Below are positions 2,992 to 17,170 of a stretch of 24,000 bases of DNA, piece after piece. The DNA is from an uncultured Candidatus Saccharibacteria bacterium (lineage in GTDB: Bacteria > Patescibacteriota > Minisyncoccia > Phycocordibacterales > Phycocordibacteraceae): positions 1 to 24,000 of the forward strand of contig CAYQCB010000011.1 in NCBI GenBank assembly GCA_964415875.1. Direction: 5' to 3'. The stretch's first letter is position 1. Each line of letters begins with the position of its first letter. A model generated the notes under the pieces. It worked only from the letters and a program-made list of their open reading frames with translations, did no database searches and was not told the origin of the DNA. The position numbers and the translations under genes are program-made.

Positions 2992-3039
2992 CCATAAAAA
3001 TGAAAAACCGCGCTTTCGCGCGGTTTTTCATTTTTATGG
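2992..3039. terminator. Bidirectional intrinsic terminator shared by convergent nrdJ and rnpB
   Basis: A perfect 22-bp inverted repeat, ccataaaaatgaaaaaccgcgc / gcgcggtttttcatttttatgg, surrounds a tttc loop. The GC core is flanked by an A-run and a T-run, so a U-tract is available on both strands. Confidence 0.8.
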
Positions 3040-3399
3040 ACTTGGCCGATAAGCCGAATTCTGTCTGCCGAGCCGAAGCTCGGGAGGCGATCATTTATCT
3101 GGGACAGTAATTGCTTGCTGCCTCGAGCGGCACCTCAGTCACACGTCTTACGAAGCGTACTGATACGACCTTGCACGGGGGTAAGGATTTAGCCGTTTCA
3201 CCTCCCCGATTGCTCGGGGAACTCATCCGCATCTTTCGAAGCGGATGCTGGCGCGCTTTCGCACGCACAGCGTCTCTGCTCGCACCTCGCGCCTCACGGC
3301 GTGTGGGAATTGCCCACTACCTGACTGCCCACATGAGGCCCGTGTTCGGACTTTCCTCTCTCTTCACAAAGTGTCGAGAGTAATCGCCTGGCCAAGTCC
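3038..3399 (-). ncRNA. rnpB: RNase P RNA, bacterial type A
   Basis: The minus strand reads GGACUUGGCC...GAGAGGAAAGUCCGAACAC...ACAGAAUUCGGCUUAUCGGCCAAGUCC. Both universally conserved blocks are present (GAGGAAAGUCCG and ACAGAAnnCGGCUUA). The 5' GGACUUGGCC and 3' GGCCAAGUCC ends pair as P1. Confidence 0.9.
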
Positions 3400-9746: not shown

Positions 9747-9773
9747 TGCAAGATTTGGGCGCAGTGGCGTTCT

Positions 9774-9799
9774 GCGAGTATGGTTTAGTGGTAGAACAC
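9774..9799 (+). pseudogene. Orphan tRNA 5' fragment (acceptor 5' strand plus D-arm), near-copy of the 5' part of tRNA-Gly(CCC)
   Basis: gcgagtatggtttagtggtagaaca compares with gcggatatggtttagtggtagaaca of the intact tRNA 77 nt downstream. No matching anticodon arm, T-arm or 3' acceptor strand follows. Confidence 0.5.
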
Positions 9800-9850
9800 G
9801 GTGGCAGGCTGGATGCGGAATTGGCGTATCCAGCATTGCAGTGACGTTTT

Positions 9851-9924
9851 GCGGATATGGTTTAGTGGTAGAACAGTTGCTTCCCAAGCAACGGGCGGGA
9901 GTTCGATTCTCCCTATCCGCACCA
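9851..9924 (+). tRNA. tRNA-Gly, anticodon CCC, with encoded CCA
   Basis: Manual cloverleaf: GCGGATA TG GTTT AGTGGTA GAAC A GTTGC TTCCCAA GCAAC GGGC GGGAG TTCGATT CTCCC TATCCGC A CCA. Confidence 0.9.
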
Positions 9925-10032
9925 AGGGCAAATCCGGCACTACTCATTAGTGCTGGATTTGGTGGCAGGACCGGTTTTCGGTTCCGAAAACCGCTGAAAG
10001 TCGCTACGGGCTTTCAGTCCCTCGGTTGAGGC

Positions 10033-10057
10033 ACGAGTTCGATTCTCGTATCCCGCA
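10033..10057 (+). pseudogene. Orphan tRNA 3' fragment (T-arm plus 3' acceptor strand), Gly-tRNA-like
   Basis: ACGAG TTCGATT CTCGT ATCCCGC A is present. The required 5' partner GCGGGAT is not found upstream, and no D-arm or anticodon arm lies within 120 nt. Confidence 0.45.
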
Positions 10058-10322
10058 CCGAATCTGTCTACTGGTGTCTGAGCTTGCCGCGTTTAACAAA
10101 TGCGTGGCGCAGCCTGTTGTAACCGCTGTGCATGTGCTGCGTCTGTATTTGCAGGTATTGAAGTTGCAACTTCAGGTGAACCACATGTGGTTAAAGGTAT
10201 AGTAGCCTCTGTGTTTTGGGTGCTCCGGGCGCATCGCGCATGGAGGTGCTTCATGAAGTAATTTTTGCCTCAGCGCGTAGTAATAAGTGAGAAAGCAGCG
10301 TTATAAGCTTTAGCAAAACTGT

Positions 10323-11208: not shown

Positions 11209-11250
11209 CACAAAAGCGCCCGGGGCCTACAGGCCCCGGGCGCTTTTGTG
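11209..11250 (+). terminator. Intrinsic terminator after the glutaredoxin-like gene
   Basis: A perfect 19-bp stem, cacaaaagcgcccggggcc / ggccccgggcgcttttgtg, has the T-run inside and after the 3' arm. Confidence 0.8.
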
Positions 11251-11268: not shown

Positions 11269-11340
11269 GCCCTTGTAGTTCAATGGATAGAACAGAGGCT
11301 TCCTAAGCTTCCGATCTAGGTTCGACTCCTAGCTAGGGCA
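11269..11340 (+). tRNA. tRNA-Arg, anticodon CCU, no encoded CCA
   Basis: Manual cloverleaf: GCCCTTG TA GTTC AATGGATA GAAC A GAGGC TTCCTAA GCTTC CGAT CTAGG TTCGACT CCTAG CTAGGGC A. There is one U-U mismatch at acceptor pair 6-67. Confidence 0.85.
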
Positions 11341-11514
11341 CAAAAATCCCCACAGGGCTATGTGCCGACCAGTAAAAAAACAAAAACTGAGTTTAGAGGA
11401 GAGAGATTTTAGCTTCGTCCCCTGGATGCTTGCGCGCCCAGGCTCTGATGCTTTTCGCTCAAACAGTATTTAATTAATTCCACCCGTCGACCCATAGCCC
11501 TCTAGGGACTTGGT

Positions 11515-11603: not shown

Positions 11604-11843
11604 TCATTGTCCCCACCACTCAGCAAACGGATCGAGCAGCGTCGGTGAGGCGTAGTGCACCGTCGGAGTGGCGACAGTCCTGCATTCATCGCGTAAGGCC
11701 TGCGCCACCAAAAACTCGAAGTGCGACACAAGCTCTCCCTGCTTTCTCAAGGCATATCGCGGAGCGGCGAGCGGCTCGAAAGTCACAATATTCGACACGC
11801 CATCATTTTCCATTTGGGCATTTCCCCATAGGGTGAGGGTCAT
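11604..11843 (-). CDS. Hypothetical protein, 79 aa (island ORF)
   Basis: MTLTLWGNAQMENDG...AEWWGQ. Its ATG overlaps the stop of the upstream 63-aa ORF (ATGA at 11840-11843). The longer 161-aa track version overlaps two better-supported ORFs, so I rejected it. Confidence 0.5.
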   Translation of the reverse strand: MTLTLWGNAQMENDGVSNIVTFEPLAAPRYALRKQGELVSHFEFLVAQALRDECRTVATPTVHYASPTLLDPFAEWWGQ

Positions 11844-12031
11844 TTTCCGTTGATAGCTCGCCCTAGGGCTACGAGAAGCCCTCCAATAGCACTGCGCATC
11901 AGGCGCACTGCTGCCAGGATTGGCCATCGGAAAACCGCAGCCGCTGCGTGGGGCCCACGAATCATCATGGCCGCTCCCACCAGCACCATCCAGAGAGCGG
12001 TCAGTGAGACGATAAGGTTTGAAAAGTCCAT
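11840..12031 (-). CDS. Small membrane protein, 63 aa with 2 predicted TM segments (island ORF)
   Basis: GAAAGGAG lies 7 nt upstream of the ATG. The sequence is hydrophobic (LIVSLTALWMVLVGAAMMI and AIGGLLVALG). Confidence 0.55.
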   Translation of the reverse strand: MDFSNLIVSLTALWMVLVGAAMMIRGPHAAAAVFRWPILAAVRLMRSAIGGLLVALGRAINGK

Positions 12032-12089
12032 GAAGACTCCTTTCTGTTTCGGGATGGCACCATTGCGACCCCCTTATGCCGCCCTGCAC

Positions 12090-12203
12090 CTATTGCAGGG
12101 CGGCATAAATTGGGGCGAGCAAGCTGCTCAGAAGCCAGTGATATTCGATGCCGAGCAGCACTGCTGCCGCGACGAGCGCAACTAGAAACAAAAAGCTATC
12201 CAC
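12090..12203 (-). CDS. Small hydrophobic peptide, 37 aa with a GTG start (island ORF; below the ORF-track size cutoff)
   Basis: Read by hand: AAGGAG-9 nt-GTG, then VDSFLFLVALVAAAVLLGIEYHWLLSSLLAPIYAALQ. The start is 4 nt after the stop of the 123-aa ORF. The last codons form the 5' arm of the 12074-12108 hairpin. Confidence 0.4.
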   Translation of the reverse strand: MDSFLFLVALVAAAVLLGIEYHWLLSSLLAPIYAALQ

Positions 12204-12207
12204 CAGC

Positions 12208-12579
12208 TTACTCTCCTTTCACCACCTCTCCCCACAGGAAGTCGGTGATCTTCCCAGCCAGTTCATCGGAGATCCCAATATCGACGAGGATCCCTTTTCC
12301 GACCTCGAGCGCCAGATCTTCCTCGCGGCTCCGCTTGCTGGTGACCTTTGCGGCCAGTTTCGGGTAGGCGGCCAAAAACCGTGCCTCCTTGGCGAAGTCA
12401 CGGCGATTTTTTGCGATGTCACGAAGACCATTCTTGAGACCATCGATGAAACCACCAAGGCTGTTCTCTGTGACCTCCACCAAAATGGAGATTTCCACGG
12501 AGGCGAGCTCCTTTTTTGTGCTTGCCTCTGACACCAACTGGGTCACAGCCTCAGTCCAGAGCTCGTTTGGAATAGCCAT
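12208..12579 (-). CDS. Hypothetical protein, 123 aa, predicted helical and acidic (island ORF)
   Basis: TAGGAG lies 10 nt upstream of the ATG. The composition is clean and coding-like. I recognise no family. Confidence 0.6.
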   Translation of the reverse strand: MAIPNELWTEAVTQLVSEASTKKELASVEISILVEVTENSLGGFIDGLKNGLRDIAKNRRDFAKEARFLAAYPKLAAKVTSKRSREEDLALEVGKGILVDIGISDELAGKITDFLWGEVVKGE

Positions 12580-12780
12580 GGCACGTTTCTCCTACCCCTG
12601 ATCCCCGGGCGCGGGTGCACCGTGTGGTGCAAAGGACACAGTAGGCGCGCGACTCATTTTATGAGTCGCGCGCCTATGAGTGCCCAGTACCATTCTCTAC
12701 CAACGCGCGAGTCTCGTGCGCTGGATAAAGCGGATGAACACCAGAACCAACTGAATGTTCACCCGAAGCTGCCAAACCAT

Positions 12781-12936
12781 ACAACGACACAGAGTGACAG
12801 AACTCTGAGCGAGGGCGGAGCTCATTCCGCGTGGGCCAGACGCTATCGCATTGGTTTCCTCCTTTGCGACGATTGTGTAGAAACTGCCGTGTCAGTTTCT
12901 ACGGAAAGAACAAGCCACCACACGGGGTGGGGGAGG
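12781..12936 (-). repeat. Copy A of the structured intergenic element (about 156 nt)
   Basis: It aligns with 13756-13935 in long identical blocks: acaacgacacagag, gacagaactctgagcgagggcgg, atcgcattggtttcctcctttgcga, and gtgtagaaactgccgtgtcagtttctacgg. It begins right after the stop codon of the 180-aa ORF. Confidence 0.85.
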
Positions 12937-13479
12937 CTAGACGGTCACCGGCCGCATCGGGTCGATGACCCCGGCCCCCTCGAGGGCCGTGATGAGGGCC
13001 CGGCCGAGCGCGGCGCGCTCAGCCTCCCCCTTCTGGTAGTTGGCGAGCCAGTCGACCGCTCTCGCGACCGACAGTTCGGAGGTCTCAAACGAGACCTCCG
13101 CCGCCTCCAGGGCGGAGGCGATCACCTCCGCCCTCCAGACGGATGCGCCCGGGAACGTCACCCGGGCGCGGTAACCACCGCCGGACGCGAGTCCGACGGC
13201 GATTTGCGTCGCCGATGAAGGGGTGGTCAACACGACCTCCCCCTGCTGCGTCGACTCCACCGTGGTGAAGTCGACGCAGTCCTGGGCGGAGACAAGTTCC
13301 GCCTCTAGCGTGCGGCAGTCGGAGGCGATAAACGCCCCCAACATGATGACAGCGAGCGCCTCGCGCTCCCCCAACGTCCCATTGAGGGACCCGAAGGGGG
13401 CGAATGCCCCCGCGAGGAACCTGACCGCCTCGACGGCGGTCAGGTTGGCCGACGAAATCTCAGTCACGATTTTGGCCAT
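12937..13479 (-). CDS. Hypothetical protein, 180 aa (island ORF)
   Basis: AAGGAGG lies 6 nt upstream of ATG 13479 (MAKIVTEISS). Codons are strongly GC3-biased. The upstream extension to 13557 lacks an RBS. Confidence 0.65.
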   Translation of the reverse strand: MAKIVTEISSANLTAVEAVRFLAGAFAPFGSLNGTLGEREALAVIMLGAFIASDCRTLEAELVSAQDCVDFTTVESTQQGEVVLTTPSSATQIAVGLASGGGYRARVTFPGASVWRAEVIASALEAAEVSFETSELSVARAVDWLANYQKGEAERAALGRALITALEGAGVIDPMRPVTV

Positions 13480-13729
13480 AATGGCCTCCTTTACTGGCCA
13501 TGTGCCCGGGGGCATACATACGGCCGATTGAACACTTGCTACGGGAATCCGCAGCAAGAAAGTCTGCGGGGAGCGTTACCTCCCCGATTGGTGCCGAGCG
13601 GAGTTGAATCACTCGGTCAATGAGCCCAGCGCCTTGCAGCGCGGGAAAGTCTGGGAATCGCACCTTGCGATCCCTTTCAAATTCTCCACGCGGGGTGAAG
13701 TGCTTGAAAGGGAAGGTCAACATAACCAT
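13460..13729 (-). CDS. Hypothetical protein, 89 aa (island ORF)
   Basis: GGAGGT lies 4 nt upstream of ATG 13729 (MVMLTFPFKHF). Its 3' end overlaps the next ORF by 20 nt in another frame. Confidence 0.5.
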   Translation of the reverse strand: MVMLTFPFKHFTPRGEFERDRKVRFPDFPALQGAGLIDRVIQLRSAPIGEVTLPADFLAADSRSKCSIGRMYAPGHMASKGGHYGQNRD

Positions 13730-13755
13730 GCTGACCTCCAAGCCGTCTAACCGAT

Positions 13756-13935
13756 ACAACGACACAGAGCGACAGAACTCTGAGCGAGGGCGGTGCTCAT
13801 CTCCGCACGGAGCAAGTACGGCCCAGGGGCCGTCACGTACATCGCATTGGTTTCCTCCTTTGCGATTGTTGTGTAGAAACTGCCGTGTCAGTTTCTACGG
13901 GTTAAAGAACAGCCCACCGCACGGGGTGGTTTCGG
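13756..13935 (-). repeat. Copy B of the structured intergenic element (about 180 nt)
   Basis: It has the same blocks as copy A plus about 20 extra nt that form their own hairpin (acggccc ct gggccgt). It begins right after the stop codon of the 198-aa ORF. Confidence 0.85.
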
Positions 13936-14532
13936 CTAGTCGACCCGTTTGATGCCGCTAAAGAACACGGCATCCAAGTCCTCGAATACCTCGTTAATTG
14001 CCAGTGCGGCGACGGGATTCGTTTCCGTCGCCGACTGGCCACGCATTACCGAGGCGAAGTTCCTCAGTCTTCCGAGCCGGAGCTCGTCGAGGCACCCCTG
14101 GAGGTAGGTTTGCCTCCCCCGGGGGTTCCCTTCGGCCGCCTTTTGGGCGGCACGAAAGGCCTCCTCGGAGGCCTTCACAAGGTGGTACTCGGGGTTCAGT
14201 CCGTAGGGCAGAGACCCGAAGGCCTCCATGTACAGCCGATGCGGAAAGCCCGCGAAGTCGCCCGTGAGGGCGTACTCTAGCACCACATCGATTGCGTCGG
14301 GGATCGAAACTCCCGCCGCCAAGAATTCACCCCGTACCATTGCGACAAATGCCGCAACGGTTGCCTCCCTTTGTGGGAGGTGCGCGATGTGCTGATCGCG
14401 CGCCTCCCTGTGCGCCATATCCTCGACGCGGTAAAAGCCCGCAGCGCGTGCCTTGGCCCGGGCCGCTTCCGCAGCGCGGCCGGTCAGAGCCTTGGCTCTG
14501 ACGACGATCGGGTCGTTCGAGAATCTCGCCAT
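13936..14532 (-). CDS. Hypothetical protein, 198 aa (island ORF)
   Basis: MARFSNDPIVVRAK... with GC3-rich codons. The start is uncertain because the RBS is weak (GGAAGG). ATG 14532 lies 8 nt after the stop of the possible 64-aa ORF. In-frame alternatives exist further upstream, as far as the track ORF start at 14661. Confidence 0.6.
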   Translation of the reverse strand: MARFSNDPIVVRAKALTGRAAEAARAKARAAGFYRVEDMAHREARDQHIAHLPQREATVAAFVAMVRGEFLAAGVSIPDAIDVVLEYALTGDFAGFPHRLYMEAFGSLPYGLNPEYHLVKASEEAFRAAQKAAEGNPRGRQTYLQGCLDELRLGRLRNFASVMRGQSATETNPVAALAINEVFEDLDAVFFSGIKRVD

Positions 14533-14734: not shown

Positions 14735-14836
14735 AGTTACCTATTCAGTTTTCAAGGTACCTTCTGCCTTCGCAGAGAGAAGTCGGAGGCGATGCAATAA
14801 TAGCTGCTCTCGCCAGCCGGCTTCTTCCAACGAAAA

Positions 14837-14870
14837 GGCGACCGATTTCTCCAGGGAGAAATCGGTCGCC
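14837..14870. terminator. Strong intrinsic terminator inside the island leader, bidirectional by sequence
   Basis: A perfect 15-bp stem, ggcgaccgatttctc / gagaaatcggtcgcc, has a 4-nt loop. It is flanked by aaaa on one side and tttt on the other. Confidence 0.75.
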
Positions 14871-14998
14871 TTTTCCCCAAATAGCGTAGCTATTTGGCGC
14901 CTGGGGCAGTGGGCCCCTGGCTTTGCGACACGACTTTCTCCTCTAAAAGAAAGTGTGTTTATTTACTGGGATGGAAGGTTCAACTAACTCGTACTGCT

Positions 14999-15026
14999 AG
15001 TATACATGAACCGTGAGATTTGTCAA
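14999..15026 (-). promoter_or_regulatory. Island promoter P1 (TTGACA-16 nt-TATACT)
   Basis: The minus strand reads acTTGACAaatctcacggttcatgTATACTag. The -35 is consensus, and the -10 matches the TATACT boxes seen upstream of backbone genes. Confidence 0.65.
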
Positions 15027-15077
15027 GTGCCTGGAGCTCTGCCTCTGCAACTGCCCGGAACTTGACTAACTGCAAAT

Positions 15078-15105
15078 AGTATACACGAAGGCGTATATTT
15101 GTCAA
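15078..15105 (-). promoter_or_regulatory. Island promoter P2 (TTGACA-16 nt-TATACT), a tandem copy 79 bp upstream of P1
   Basis: The minus strand reads acTTGACAaatatacgccttcgtgTATACTat. It shares ACTTGACAAAT and GTATACTA with P1. Confidence 0.6.
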
Positions 15106-15191
15106 GTATTTTCTATATCCACGCGTTTGCGCAAAAGCCGACTTTTTAAGGGTATACTGTCTGCATTATCCCCACTTAGCTTACCGACTTC

Positions 15192-15668
15192 ATGTTTAGA
15201 GACTCTGCCAATTTCATCAGCCGCTACTTCTACCGTCAACCAGCTGGCATGTTTTTCCTCAGGCTTGTTACGGGTTTGATTTTCATTATGCATGGTCTCA
15301 TGAAGCTGCAGTCGCCCGAGATGATGGCGGGTTTCTTTGGTACTCTTGGACTTCACCCCGCTCTTTTCTGGGTGTGGGCAATAGGACTGCTTGAAGTGGT
15401 GGGAGGCGCAGCGCTTATCCTAGGCGTTGCAGCGCGCGTCTTTGGCGGGCTGCTTGCCATAGAAATGATTGCGGCCATTTTCCTTACGGGTCTTGGCAGA
15501 GGGTTTGGTGCGCATGAGTTTGAACTCTTGCTGGCAGTTGCTGCACTTGCTATAGGGCTCTCAGGTAGCGGACGCTGGTCGCTCTACAATCACAGTTGTG
15601 TGCGATGCGGTGGAGTCTTTTGCAATGGCGACACCTGTGTCGTCGCTGTAAGCGAAGAAGTGGTGTAA
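15192..15668 (+). CDS. DoxX-family membrane protein
   Basis: FFLRLVTGLIFIMHGLMKL plus four TM segments is typical of DoxX. The C-terminus is Cys-rich (CVRCGGVFCNGDTC). A TATACT box lies at 15153-15158. Confidence 0.75.
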   Translation: MFRDSANFISRYFYRQPAGMFFLRLVTGLIFIMHGLMKLQSPEMMAGFFGTLGLHPALFWVWAIGLLEVVGGAALILGVAARVFGGLLAIEMIAAIFLTGLGRGFGAHEFELLLAVAALAIGLSGSGRWSLYNHSCVRCGGVFCNGDTCVVAVSEEVV

Positions 15669-15710
15669 CGCTCCTTGTGGAATTGAGCTGGTACACAGGC
15701 GGTAAAAAGT

Positions 15711-16004
15711 ATGGATCCTGAACTGAGACGCGCACTTAGCGATCTACACGCGCTCACCAAAGACAATCACCGCATGCTGCGAGCAATTCGTCGCGAGTAC
15801 TGGTTTGGGGTGGTAGGTCGCATCGTAATCTGGGTGCTGGTACTAGCGTTGCCACTGTTCTTGTACCAACAATACGTGGGGCCAATCGTCTCAAACTATC
15901 TCGCTGCAGTGGGCGCCAAGCCCTCAGGCCCTTTTGGATTCCCGACTTCCACTGATATTCAAAAGCTGCTAGACTCAATGAGAGTGGGCACCACGAGCCC
16001 ATAG
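15711..16004 (+). CDS. Hypothetical small membrane protein, 97 aa
   Basis: A single TM segment (VVGRIVIWVLVLALPLFLY) is present. I recognise no family. Confidence 0.5.
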   Translation: MDPELRRALSDLHALTKDNHRMLRAIRREYWFGVVGRIVIWVLVLALPLFLYQQYVGPIVSNYLAAVGAKPSGPFGFPTSTDIQKLLDSMRVGTTSP

Positions 16005-16006
16005 AC

Positions 16007-16079
16007 GCTTGGATAGCTCAGTTGGTAGAGCATTCCCCTGAAGAGGGAAGGGTCGTCGGTTCGAGCCCGACTCCAAGCA
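16007..16079 (+). tRNA. tRNA-Phe, anticodon GAA, no encoded CCA
   Basis: Manual cloverleaf: GCTTGGA TA GCTC AGTTGGTA GAGC A TTCCC CTGAAGA GGGAA GGGTC GTCGG TTCGAGC CCGAC TCCAAGC A. Confidence 0.92.
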
Positions 16080-16084
16080 CAGTC

Positions 16085-17170
16085 ATGGTACGAAAGCTCT
16101 TTGCCCTTCTCAGCCGATACGAGCGACACCTCTCTGCCGCTGCGATGGTGGGCGGCTTTGTGCTCGACAACCTTTACTTTGGTCGGATCGACGTGTGGCG
16201 TACGCAGATGCTGTTCGCCATCTACACTGGCGTGTGTGTGGTCTCAATGCTTGCCCTGCACGCCATAGAGACGCGCGCTGCGCGCGGCAAGGCACGCCCG
16301 CGATGGCGTCCGCTGCTCCCCATCGCCACACAATTTGCGCTCGGAGGGTTTTGGAGCGGTTTTGTGATTTTCTACGGACGCAGTGCCGTCTTTTCTGCGT
16401 CGTGGCCATTTATGTTGGTACTTCTCGCCATTTTTCTTGCGAATGAATACTTTTCGAAATATCACGAACGGCTTGTCTTTACGAGTATTTTGTTTTTCTT
16501 CGCATTGTATTCCTACGCAGTTTTCGCAGTGCCGATATACACCGGAAAGTTGGGAGCACTGTCATTTATAGAAAGCGGAGCCGTTGCGGTGGCAGCGTTT
16601 GCGCTCTTTGCGCTTCTGCTACGCCTCGTCGGGAAAGATCGCTTTAAGGCAGACTTGCGGCGCATACGCACGGGGGCAATTATTGTGTTGCTGGTATTCA
16701 ACATTTCATATTTTACGAATATTCTCCCGCCGCTGCCGCTTGCGGCAAAGGCTGCAGGTGTGTACCACGGCGTGTGGAGAGTGCCAGGAGCCTACTTGGC
16801 TTCTACGGAGGACCAGTCCTGGGAAGTGCGGTACCTGGGTCTTGCACCGACGCTACACGTGGTCTCTGGCGAATCGCTCTACGCGTATACGTCGGTTTTT
16901 GCACCGACAACACTGACCACGACGATCGTGCACCGCTGGCAGTGGTATGACCCTGTGGCAAAAAAATGGATCACAAAAGCCGCCGTGACGTACCCCATTG
17001 TGGGTGGGCGAGACGGCGGGTACAAAGGCTACTCCGCCGCGCTAGTGACGGTTGAGGGGTCGTGGAGAGTCGATGTGGAGACAGACGATGGCAGACTCAT
17101 TGCGCGGTTACCGTTTACTGTTGTGCAAAGCCAGCTCCCACCCGTGGAGACCACTATTACCCTTGAGTAG
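16085..17170 (+). CDS. Membrane protein with a multi-TM N-terminal half and a DUF2914-like C-terminal beta domain
   Basis: The track ORF start at 16022 lies inside tRNA-Phe, so ATG 16085 (MVRKLFALL) is used. About 6 TM segments are followed by IVHRWQWYDPVAKKW...GGYKGYS...WRVDVETDDGRLIARLPF. Confidence 0.6.
   Translation: MVRKLFALLSRYERHLSAAAMVGGFVLDNLYFGRIDVWRTQMLFAIYTGVCVVSMLALHAIETRAARGKARPRWRPLLPIATQFALGGFWSGFVIFYGRSAVFSASWPFMLVLLAIFLANEYFSKYHERLVFTSILFFFALYSYAVFAVPIYTGKLGALSFIESGAVAVAAFALFALLLRLVGKDRFKADLRRIRTGAIIVLLVFNISYFTNILPPLPLAAKAAGVYHGVWRVPGAYLASTEDQSWEVRYLGLAPTLHVVSGESLYAYTSVFAPTTLTTTIVHRWQWYDPVAKKWITKAAVTYPIVGGRDGGYKGYSAALVTVEGSWRVDVETDDGRLIARLPFTVVQSQLPPVETTITLE

What the first reader, a model, noticed from the sequence alone, without database searches (positions are those of the whole stretch)
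12781..13935. Two copies of a 156-180 nt multi-hairpin intergenic RNA element, each starting at a stop codon
Copies A (12781-12936) and B (13756-13935) share long identical blocks. Read on the minus strand, both have the same order of parts. First comes a short GC hairpin, CCACC-6 nt-GGTGG, followed by a T-rich GTTCTTT tract. Next is a perfect 10-bp hairpin, GTAGAAACTG-ACACGG-CAGTTTCTAC (12877-12902 and 13873-13898). Then comes CGCAAAGGAGGAAACCAATGCGAT, then a variable-length insert. In B the insert forms its own stem (ACGGCCC/GGGCCGT), and in A it is shorter. After that come a TGAGC-9 nt-GCTCA hairpin with a CCGCCCUC loop, a CAGAG(T)-loop-(A)CUCUG hairpin, and finally UGUGUCGUUGUAU. Conserved stems around a variable insertion are what a functional structured RNA looks like, for example a cis-regulator, a processing site or a protein-binding platform. 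Simple duplication debris would not be expected to show this pattern.
Basis: seen in the sequence. Interest (0 to 1): 0.72.

Follow-up and report, generated by a model that had tools for sequence, protein, structure and literature searches.

The report
Repeated gene spacer flanking foreign orphan genes
Two copies of one ~200-base spacer between genes, made of small hairpins and a ribosome-binding site that leads nowhere, bracket foreign orphan genes in an uncultivated (CPR) bacterium; the repeat is real and looks constrained, but with only two copies and no relatives anywhere its role as a structured RNA cannot be shown.

Summary
Copies A and B are real, lie on the minus strand, and each begins at the TAG stop of an upstream gene.

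The repeat is longer than reported. It is the whole intergenic spacer, from the stop codon to the next gene's ribosome-binding site and ATG. That last part is intact after B and decayed after A.

The host is a Paceibacteria/Kaiserbacteria-like CPR chromosome. The spacers sit in a roughly 3.8-4.3 kb insertion directly 3' of tRNA-Arg(CCT), which relatives lack. They separate orphan genes X and Y, which have foreign codon GC and no homologue in billions of proteins.

Differences between the copies are strongly clustered: five hairpin units are 96% identical and the linkers 69%. That argues for constraint rather than fresh duplication debris.

RNA structure is not demonstrated. There are two sequences, no compensatory pair, and only two G·U-compatible changes. 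Only two hairpins fold better than shuffled sequence.

No further copy turned up in any collection I could search.

My best reading is a composite gene-boundary module that also served as the recombination seam for a foreign gene block, analogous to T4-phage PeSLs but not a member of that family. Interest is modest.

The parts
13730..13938 (-). Copy B: the complete spacer, from the TAG stop of gene X to just before the ATG (13729) of the next ORF
12755..12939 (-). Copy A: the same spacer after the TAG stop of gene Y. Its last ~25 nt (12755-12780) are a decayed version of B's SD/ATG region
13914..13929 (-). H1 in B: CCACC-CCGUGC-GGUGG, -7.9 kcal/mol, terminator-like but weak
12915..12930 (-). 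H1 in A: CCACC-CCGUGU-GGUGG, -6.7 kcal/mol
13901..13911 (-). U-rich tract UGUUCUUUAAC in B. Its GUUCUUUAACC matches 10 of 11 positions of the gamma-proteobacterial boxA consensus GYTCTTTAANA
12905..12912 (-). U-rich tract UGUUCUUU in A. It lacks the AAC, so it matches only 8 of 11 boxA positions
13873..13898 (-). H2 in B: perfect 10-bp hairpin GUAGAAACUG-ACACGG-CAGUUUCUAC, -13.6 kcal/mol, z -5.6
12877..12902 (-). H2 in A, identical to B
13841..13866 (-). H3 in B: AUCGCA-14 nt-UGCGAU, with the SD AAAGGAGG in the loop
12845..12870 (-). H3 in A: GUCGCA-14 nt-UGCGAU. The outer pair is G·U here, where B has A-U
13833..13861 (-). Consensus SD (13861-13854), a 6-nt spacer, AUG (13847-13845) and a 4-codon ORF MRCT* in B
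12843..12865 (-). Consensus SD, AUG (12851-12849) and a 2-codon ORF MR* in A
13801..13840 (-). Variable middle segment in B. It has 20 extra nt with its own ACGGCC/GGCCGU stem, then a CUCC/GGAG stem
12826..12844 (-). Variable middle segment in A, shorter and about 50% identical to B where it can be aligned
13756..13800 (-). Conserved 3' block in B: GCGG/CCGC or UGAGC/GCUCA, then CAGAGU-6 nt-GCUCUG (13765-13782), then UGUGUCGUUGUAU
12781..12825 (-). Conserved 3' block in A. The CAGAGU-6 nt-ACUCUG stem is at 12790-12807
13936..14532 (-). Gene X, 198 aa. An orphan with GC3 0.76 against about 0.6 in host genes
12937..13479 (-). Gene Y, 180 aa. An orphan with GC3 0.88
13460..13729 (-). Small ORF, 89 aa, with a GGAGG SD. 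It starts right at the end of copy B, and its reality as a gene is unproven
12208..12579 (-). Gene Z, 123 aa, the next gene after copy A. It is reached only after 175 nt of unrelated sequence
12640..12680 (-). Perfect ~14-bp GC hairpin between copy A and gene Z. It is not part of the repeat
14999..15105 (-). Two tandem near-consensus promoters (TTGACA-16-TATACT) pointing into the orphan-gene block
11269..11341 (+). tRNA-Arg(CCT). The orphan-gene block is inserted directly 3' of it

Best explanation
The two copies are one and the same complete intergenic spacer (stop codon to next start codon, about 185-210 nt). It belongs to a small, horizontally acquired, minus-strand operon of orphan genes inserted 3' of tRNA-Arg(CCT) in a Paceibacteria (CPR) chromosome.

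The spacer is a composite gene-boundary module. In order, it has:
- a weak terminator-like hairpin with a U-rich tract;
- a perfect 10-bp hairpin;
- a consensus Shine-Dalgarno sequence displayed in a hairpin loop, with an AUG that opens only a 2-4 codon ORF;
- two small hairpins.

Proposed working:
1. It is transcribed inside the polycistronic mRNA and punctuates it. The hairpins attenuate transcription or protect the 3' end of the upstream cistron. The decoy SD/mini-ORF loads ribosomes and shields the 5' side of the downstream message.
2. It is the only sequence shared between otherwise unrelated foreign genes. It was therefore the seam at which homologous recombination inserted the small-ORF+Y block, and it can delete that block again. 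This is how PeSL cassettes behave in T4-type phages.

Shown: the repeat, its exact boundaries, the mosaic constraint, the foreign and orphan nature of the flanked genes, the insertion slot, and the absence of relatives.

Inferred: transcription, the regulatory effects, and the recombination history.
For: - Boundaries run from the stop codon to the next SD/ATG.
- Mismatches are clustered: hairpin units have 4 in 102 columns, linkers 21 in 67.
- H2 and H3 are significantly stable.
- There is a perfect SD+AUG with only a 2- or 4-codon ORF.
- The H1 plus T-tract fits the terminator pattern.
- Both stem substitutions are G·U-compatible only on the sense RNA.
- X and Y are coding by codon-position GC and are foreign: GC3 0.76 and 0.88, against about 0.6 in host genes. 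The spacers have host-like GC of 0.56-0.57.
- X and Y have no homologue: Y in 5.8e9 protein clusters; X there and in 1.84e9 representatives.
- The slot between tRNA-Arg and tRNA-Phe is 313-570 nt in most relatives and 4666 nt here.
- Strong promoters upstream point into the block.
- The PeSL precedent, composite terminator/promoter repeats flanking ORFans and recombining, is described in PMC2839356 and PMC4122927.
Against: - There are only two copies, so neither constraint on pairing nor recombination can be demonstrated.
- H1 is weak (-6.7 and -7.9 kcal/mol) and no better than shuffles. The genome's evident terminators are 20-bp perfect hairpins (I2, I5, I7).
- No promoter-like site lies inside the element, unlike PeSLs.
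- Copy A no longer feeds a downstream gene, because its SD and ATG have decayed.
- The clustered differences could partly be a few multi-base replacement events rather than many independent substitutions.
- There are no expression data.
Confidence: 0.4

Rival explanations
1. It is a leftover of a duplication or recombination event with no function of its own. On this view, the conserved blocks simply have not yet diverged, and the scrambled linkers come from a few complex mutations.
For: - There are only two copies, 975-999 nt apart, in a recently acquired block.
- Loops are as conserved as stems.
- Copy A's downstream SD and ATG have decayed.
- No homologue was found anywhere.
Against: - The mosaic is strong: P<1e-4 and 2e-6.
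- Linkers of 3-5 nt are completely replaced between 25-44 nt perfect runs. This is hard to obtain from uniform decay or from gene conversion.
- Both stem changes preserve pairing.
Confidence: 0.2
2. It is a dedicated structured cis-acting RNA in the operon transcript, for example a processive antitermination or Nus-factor loading site. Such a site would be laid out as hairpin, boxA-like UGUUCUUUAAC, then further hairpins. Alternatively it could be a processing or protein-binding platform.
For: - B's GTTCTTTAACC matches 10 of 11 positions of the boxA consensus GYTCTTTAANA (PMC5725501). A hairpin lies just upstream, as boxB does in rrn leaders (my own knowledge).
- The hairpin units are conserved.
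- The G·U changes are strand-specific.
- A foreign operon would benefit from protection against Rho (inference).
Against: - Copy A lacks the AA of boxA and matches only 8 of 11. Single changes in boxA abolish its function in E. coli.
- The 11-nt pattern occurs 8 times in 2.8 Mb of related DNA, which I estimate to be about chance level.
- There is no covariation, no Rfam match, and whole-element folding z is only about -2.
- The CPR boxA consensus is unknown.
Confidence: 0.15
3. It is a site-specific recombination site marking gene-cassette boundaries. This would be integron attC-like, or a simple tyrosine-recombinase core site; the 10-6-10 palindrome has that architecture. Under this view X+B and small-ORF/Y+A are cassettes.
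For: - Each copy begins at the stop codon of a foreign orphan gene.
- B ends at G|TTAGAC, which fits GTTRRRY, 21 nt before the next ATG.
- The perfect palindrome has an asymmetric spacer.
- The copies are direct repeats flanking a gene block.
Against: - There is no RYYYAAC inverse core at the 5' end of either copy.
- A's 3' core is GTTTGGC, which matches 6 of 7.
- There is no end-to-end imperfect hairpin in A.
- At 185-210 nt it is outside the 57-141 nt typical of attC.
- No integrase or recombinase domain appeared among the main ORFs of the 24-kb window scanned with Pfam.
- Conservation extends over about 200 nt, far beyond a core site.
Confidence: 0.08
4. It is a small non-autonomous mobile or dispersed repeat (MITE-, REP- or ERIC-like) that happens to have landed twice here.
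For: - It is intergenic, about 160-210 nt, rich in hairpins, and has a variable internal insert.
- H2 starts with GTAG, like REP heads (my own knowledge).
Against: - There are no terminal inverted repeats: A P=0.88, B P=0.10.
- No target-site duplication is apparent from reading the flanks.
- No third copy exists in the window or in 1.37 Mb of relatives.
- Both copies are in identical phase with the upstream stop codon.
- Neither the Pfam scans nor the NCBIfam scan of the island ORFs showed a transposase or RAYT domain.
Confidence: 0.07
5. It is a decayed small-protein gene. In B the second ATG, 11 nt after the SD, opens a 31-aa ORF (MYVTAPGPYLLRAEMSTALAQSSVALCRCIG). On this view A is its pseudogene.
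For: - The ORF 13747-13842 is open in B and ends where the homology decays.
- The total length difference between the copies is 24 nt, which is in frame.
Against: - The frame is broken in A.
- All four differences in the shared 17 codons are non-synonymous.
- No protein in 5.8e9 clusters resembles any of the six frames of either copy.
Confidence: 0.05
6. It is an assembly artefact: a metagenomic chimera in which high-GC fragments from another organism were joined through a shared repeat.
For: - X and Y have codon GC foreign to the contig.
- X, Y, the small ORF and Z are not on record in the Logan assembly, which does hold the neighbouring DoxX and o97 genes at 100% identity.
Against: - The two copies differ from each other, and their longest perfect run is only 40 nt. 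By my estimate that is too short to bridge typical final assembly k-mers.
- All genes keep one strand with regular SD spacing.
- Other host genes (o112, DUF5666) are also missing from Logan, so the absence is not informative.
Confidence: 0.05

Closest known systems
PeSL (promoter-early stem-loop) mobile regulatory cassettes of T4-type phages (PMC2839356, PMC4122927)
   Same: Both are short composite intergenic repeats containing a terminator-like stem-loop. Both are found next to database-orphan genes in a hyperplastic region. Both are the only homology between unrelated genes, and so are the natural seam for insertion, deletion or circle formation by homologous recombination.
   Different: PeSLs carry a strong sigma-70 promoter and are about 50-90 nt, with many copies per genome. 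Here no promoter-like site lies in the element. The unit is about 200 nt with five hairpin units and a decoy SD/AUG. Only two copies are known, and the host is a bacterial chromosome rather than a demonstrated phage.
Integron attC sites and gene cassettes
   Same: A conserved element starts right after the stop codon of promoterless, compositionally foreign orphan genes, in direct orientation. B ends in a GTTRRRY-like core shortly before the next start codon.
   Different: There is no R'' inverse core, no R/L-box hairpin with extrahelical bases, and the element is too long. No integrase was seen in the window.
rrn / lambda nut antitermination signals (boxB hairpin plus boxA)
   Same: A hairpin is followed by UGUUCUUUAAC in copy B, one mismatch from GYTCTTTAANA. 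Such signals occur as two similar copies in lambdoid phages (my own knowledge).
   Different: Copy A lacks two consensus positions that matter in E. coli. The motif frequency is at about chance level in related DNA. Nothing about Nus binding can be tested here.
STAB-SD mRNA stabiliser of Bacillus cryIIIA
   Same: A perfect SD (AAAGGAGG) lies in an untranslated region, does not start a real gene, and could hold a 30S subunit or ribosome to protect downstream RNA.
   Different: Here an AUG follows at ideal spacing and a 2-4 codon ORF can be translated. The SD sits in a hairpin loop. No stability data exist.
Dispersed intergenic repeats (REP/BIME, ERIC, Correia, MITEs)
   Same: It is a size class of hairpin-rich intergenic repeats, transcribed with neighbouring genes, with internal insertion variants.
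   Different: There are no terminal inverted repeats or target duplications, only two adjacent copies are known, and both are in fixed phase with the stop codon.

Membership tests
Any Rfam family | Covariance-model score at or above the family's gathering threshold | tested here: not met
   The gathering-threshold scan of the window found only RNase P RNA and three tRNAs. An E<=10 scan of 12500-14100 gave no hit overlapping either copy.
Integron attC | R'' inverse core RYYYAAC at the 5' end, complementary to R' | tested here: not met
   Read directly from the sequence. In A the first AAC lies inside H2. In B, CCGAAAC matches 4 of 7 and CTTTAAC has the wrong first base and is absent from A.
Integron attC | R' core GTTRRRY at the 3' boundary | tested here: inconclusive
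   B has GTTAGAC, which fits. A has GTTTGGC, which matches 6 of 7.
Integron attC | The single strand folds into one imperfect hairpin pairing the two ends (R and L boxes) | tested here: not met
   DNA folds of both copies are multi-branched. End pairing appears only in B and depends on the AAC that A lacks.
Integron attC | Integron integrase nearby, or an array of many attC sites | tested here: not met
   The Pfam scans of the window's main ORFs gave no integrase domain. There are only two copies.
PeSL-type mobile regulatory cassette | Strong sigma-70-like promoter inside the repeat | tested here: not met
   No promoter-like site lies in either copy. The only such sites are at 14999-15105.
PeSL-type mobile regulatory cassette | Stem-loop acting as a terminator or attenuator | tested here: inconclusive
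   H1 plus the T-tract fits the pattern. But it is only -6.7 and -7.9 kcal/mol and no better than shuffles.
PeSL-type mobile regulatory cassette | Flanks orphan genes in a variable region | tested here: met
   X and Y are orphans. The slot is variable among 80 relatives.
PeSL-type mobile regulatory cassette | Recombination between copies (indels between strains, mini-circles) | not testable with these tools
   No second strain carrying the island was retrievable.
MITE / non-autonomous transposon | Terminal inverted repeats | tested here: not met
   Best 5' versus reverse-complemented 3' alignment: A scores 5 (P 0.88), B matches 13 of 17 (P 0.10).
MITE / REP-like dispersed repeat | Many dispersed copies in the genome | not testable with these tools
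   Only this 24.9-kb contig of the source genome is available. No copy exists in 1.37 Mb of relatives.
Intrinsic terminator | A stable GC-rich stem directly followed by a U-tract | tested here: inconclusive
   The pattern is met. The region's count of such patterns equals the shuffle expectation (5 against 4.9), and the stem is weak.
boxA / Nus antitermination site | Match to the boxA consensus (GYTCTTTAANA in gamma-proteobacteria) | tested here: inconclusive
   B matches 10 of 11 and A 8 of 11. The relaxed pattern is found 8 times in 2.8 Mb, which I estimate to be about chance. The lineage's own boxA is unknown.
boxA / Nus antitermination site | NusB/NusE binding and resistance to Rho | not testable with these tools
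   This needs biochemistry or genetics.
Structured cis-regulatory RNA (generic) | Compensatory base-pair changes across homologues | tested here: not met
   There are two sequences. No both-sided change occurs in any local helix, and two one-sided changes go to G·U. The only 'both-sided' pairs lie in a poorly aligned long-range helix.

The most novel reading that the evidence does not exclude
The element is the conserved linker of a gene-cassette system that needs no integrase and belongs to an unsampled mobile element or phage of CPR bacteria. Each foreign orphan gene would travel with this ~200-nt module. The module would both insulate the gene's expression, through a Nus/boxA-like antitermination signal plus a decoy ribosome-loading site, and provide the homology for cassette insertion and excision.
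Probability: 0.1. Interest if true: 0.65.

Novelty: new member of a known kind. Interest (0 to 1): 0.3.

Why it matters
If the module is functional, it would be a first look at how an ultra-small CPR genome organises and expresses newly acquired orphan genes. It would show one portable spacer combining a 3'-end hairpin, a perfect hairpin and a decoy ribosome-binding site, which may also be the seam for gene gain and loss next to a tRNA gene. As it stands it is a two-copy, lineage-private repeat. Its value is as a lead to follow once the full genome, related strains or metatranscriptomes are available.

Tried and rejected
Searches for further copies, all empty:
- Rfam at gathering threshold and at E<=10.
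- blastn against phages and plasmids.
- Five exact or degenerate blocks against IMG/VR.
- The H2 pattern against GTDB species genomes.
- The H2 pattern against JGI metagenomes. This gave one hit, L001, a high-GC (probably actinobacterial) contig that shares only the palindrome arms and none of the rest.
- blastn, nhmmer and a covariance model of H1-H3 against the window plus 80 syntenic Paceibacteria loci.
- A six-frame translation of both copies against 5.8e9 proteins, meant to catch spurious ORFs called over other copies.

Attempts to find function or relatives for the flanking genes, all empty or useless:
- Pfam, PHROGs, NCBIfam and PADLOC.
- PDB sequence search.
- Exhaustive phmmer for X.
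- IMG/VR search for Z.
- AlphaFold2 single-sequence models of X and Y had pLDDT 43 and 49, too poor for fold search.

Attempts to recover more of the source genome by exact-protein look-up gave only a 1.1-kb Logan contig, L082.

Readings I rejected:
- X and Y are paralogues from a tandem duplication. Reading the two proteins showed no resemblance, and only the first ~38 nt after each copy aligns.
- tRNA-derived att repeats flank the island. None of 11 nt or more were found.
- A promoter or operator lies within the element. There are no promoter-like sites, and the half-site occurs nowhere else.
- Stop-codon read-through into the element. The post-TAG frame is open for 14-15 codons in both copies, but this follows trivially from the shared phase, and only one 3-nt indel is involved.
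- The plus-strand ORFs over the copies are genes. The two long ORFs use different frames in A and B.
Full report
**What is there.**
- H1: a 5-bp GC hairpin, CCACC-6 nt-GGUGG, with a U-rich tail.
- H2: a perfect 10-bp hairpin, GUAGAAACUG-ACACGG-CAGUUUCUAC. It gave 2 matches against 0.00 expected in shuffles.
- The block CGCAAAGGAGGAAACCAAUGCGAU.
- A middle segment of variable length.
- A conserved 3' block, ending in UGUGUCGUUGUAU.

Each copy starts directly after a TAG stop codon, at 12937-12939 for gene Y and 13936-13938 for gene X. A profile built from the two copies finds them at E 1e-62 and 1e-74 and finds nothing else.

**Amendments to the anatomy.**
- The similarity includes the stop-codon context (CTAGCC). 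In B it reaches the GGAGG and ATG (13729) of the next ORF. In A the same positions read CGGG and ATT, a decayed copy. The repeated unit is therefore the whole gene-to-gene spacer, not an insert within one.
- The SD block is itself a hairpin (H3): (A/G)UCGCA-14 nt-UGCGAU, with AAAGGAGG in the loop and the AUG in the 3' arm. The AUG lies 6 nt from the SD but opens only MR* in A and MRCT* in B.
RNAalifold prefers GCGG/CCGC plus CAGAGU/(A/G)CUCUG.

**How much structure is really there.** Taken alone, H2 (-13.6 kcal/mol, z -5.6) and H3 (-8.9 and -8.6, z -4.1 and -3.2) fold better than shuffled sequence. H1 (-6.7 and -7.9) does not, and the 3' block is marginal in A and not better in B (z -2.3 in A, +0.3 in B). 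The whole elements give z about -2.

With two sequences there is no compensatory change in any local helix. Two stem positions changed on one side, A-U to G·U in H3 and U-A to U·G in H5. Both remain paired only if the minus strand is read as RNA. I estimate the chance of that at about 0.06, so it is a hint of sense-strand RNA pairing and no more.

**Is it constrained?** Yes, as far as two copies can tell.
- Of 25 mismatches in 169 ungapped columns, 22 lie within 2 nt of another. No permutation in 10,000 reached that count.
- The five hairpin units (stems plus loops) carry 4 mismatches in 102 columns. The linkers carry 21 in 67, plus 23 of the 24 gap columns (Fisher 2e-6).
- Linkers of 3-5 nt are completely replaced between perfect runs of 25-40 nt. 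Uniform decay does not produce that, and gene conversion would not skip such short linkers (inference).

Two caveats apply. The hairpins were defined on these same sequences, and loops are as conserved as stems. So what is conserved is sequence modules, not demonstrably pairing.

**Context.** The window is chromosomal. It carries ribonucleotide reductase, RNase P RNA, MurJ, LepA, three tRNAs, Hsp20, PrsW, a class I aminoacyl-tRNA synthetase and TsaD. The closest LepA relatives, at 71-80% identity, are Paceibacteria, Kaiserbacteria and other Patescibacteria MAGs.

Gene order MurJ-LepA-o112 ... o97-DUF2914-Hsp20-PrsW-aaRS is conserved in these relatives. So is the order tRNA-Gly, tRNA-Arg(CCT), o97, tRNA-Phe. 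The Arg-to-Phe distance is 313-570 nt in most relatives and 4666 nt here. The orphan-gene block with the two spacers is therefore an insertion directly 3' of tRNA-Arg, in a slot that also holds insertions in some relatives. No tRNA-derived att repeat flanks it, and no integrase domain appeared in the ORFs I scanned.

All genes of the block are on the minus strand, downstream of two tandem near-consensus promoters at 15105-15078 and 15026-14999.

**The flanked genes.**
- X (198 aa) and Y (180 aa) show codon-position GC typical of real genes from a higher-GC source: GC3 0.76 and 0.88, against about 0.6 in host genes. The spacers have host-like GC of 0.56-0.57.
- Neither X nor Y has any relative in 5.8e9 protein clusters. 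X also has none among 1.84e9 representatives read exhaustively.
- There is no Pfam, PHROG, NCBIfam, PADLOC or PDB match.
- Single-sequence AlphaFold2 models are too poor to use.

The source record is one NCBI contig of 24,946 bp. A Logan contig from SRR8931241 is 100% identical to 15025-16137. The rest of the genome was not retrievable.

**Search for relatives of the element.** Nothing was found in:
- Rfam;
- phage and plasmid collections;
- IMG/VR, with five blocks;
- GTDB species genomes, with the H2 pattern;
- 1.37 Mb of syntenic relatives, by blastn, nhmmer and a covariance model;
- the six-frame translation against 5.8e9 proteins.

The single JGI metagenome match (L001) is a high-GC (probably actinobacterial) contig that shares only the palindrome arms. 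A single such match is about what I would expect by chance for 20 fixed bases in a collection of that size.

**What it is not.**
- Not attC. There is no RYYYAAC inverse core and no end-to-end hairpin in A. It is too long, and no integrase was seen. Only B has a good GTTRRRY.
- Not a MITE. There are no terminal inverted repeats.
- Not a promoter or operator. There is no promoter-like site, and no extra half-sites exist.
- Not a conserved small-protein gene. The frame is broken in A, all four differences in the shared codons are non-synonymous, and there is no protein match.

**Leads that remain open.**
- The U-rich tract of B, GUUCUUUAACC, is one mismatch from the gamma-proteobacterial boxA consensus GYTCTTTAANA (PMC5725501). 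It follows a hairpin, as boxA follows boxB in rrn leaders (my own knowledge). But A lacks two consensus bases, and the relaxed motif occurs at about chance frequency in related DNA.
- The perfect SD that starts no real gene recalls the STAB-SD stabiliser of Bacillus (my own knowledge).
- The arrangement of composite terminator-like repeats flanking orphan genes in a variable region is closest to the PeSL cassettes of T4-type phages, which mediate gene shuffling by homologous recombination (PMC2839356, PMC4122927). A PeSL's defining promoter is absent here.

**Verdict.**
- Best reading (confidence about 0.4): a composite gene-boundary module of a horizontally acquired orphan-gene operon, under sequence constraint. 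It probably acts in the transcript, through attenuation or 3'-end protection and ribosome loading at a decoy SD/mini-ORF. It also served as the homologous seam at which the small-ORF+Y block was inserted.
- Main rivals: a functionless duplication remnant (0.2); a dedicated structured RNA such as an antitermination site (0.15); a recombination site (0.08); a mobile repeat (0.07); a decayed small gene (0.05); an assembly chimera (0.05).

The claim of a structured RNA is neither shown nor excluded. Interest is modest (0.3): this is a lineage-private two-copy repeat with no way at present to test covariation or expression.

Noticed in passing
window 14832-15107 (minus strand): Two tandem near-consensus promoters (TTGACA-16-TATACT) lie inside a 79-nt-spaced direct repeat. 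They are followed by an SD+GTG 13-codon ORF, an 8-bp hairpin and a perfect 21-bp hairpin with an A-tract and a T-tract (14832-14875). This looks like a short leader or small RNA unit at the head of the orphan-gene block. It has no Rfam match.
   Followed up: partly
window 9761-10059: Around tRNA-Gly(CCC), a 38-nt copy of its upstream region plus 5' half lies at 9761-9798. A T-arm/acceptor-like copy with compensatory stem changes lies at 10030-10059. Rfam tRNA scores 20.4 bits, below threshold, over 9952-10057. This may be a disrupted or intron-bearing second tRNA.
   Followed up: partly
window 12640-12680: A perfect ~14-bp GC-rich hairpin (GGCGCGCGACUCAU-AAAA-AUGAGUCGCGCGCC) lies in the 175 nt of unique sequence between copy A and gene Z. 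It has no clean U-tract.
   Followed up: no
window 2992-3039, 11209-11250, 14832-14875: The genome's evident terminators are 20-22-bp perfect hairpins flanked by A- and T-tracts, so they look bidirectional. One of them abuts the 3' end of the RNase P RNA gene (3034-3399, minus strand).
   Followed up: no
L040 12780-12829 and 15472-15521; L054 14192-14244 and 18554-18606: In L040, an exact 50-nt repeat of the tRNA-Phe 3' end flanks a 2.7-kb insert in the same tRNA cluster. So the cluster is an integration hot spot in this lineage. L054 has a similar 53-nt repeat (87% identical) around a 4.4-kb stretch, which I did not examine.
   Followed up: partly
L026 15027-15533: In one relative a DoxX gene (46% identical) directly follows tRNA-Arg(CCT). 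This suggests DoxX was in the slot before the orphan-gene block arrived in the window's genome.
   Followed up: no
L001 5594-5619: A high-GC (probably actinobacterial) soil contig has a perfect 26-bp palindrome, GTAGAAACTG-AACGTT-CAGTTTCTAC, with arms identical to H2. It lies in an intergenic region a few hundred bases from a regulator-like ORF that I take to be TetR-like from its sequence. It is probably an unrelated operator and a chance match.
   Followed up: partly
window 11840-12203 (minus strand): Two small hydrophobic ORFs (37 and 63 aa) with good SDs follow gene Z. They are possible membrane peptides of the same acquired block.
   Followed up: no
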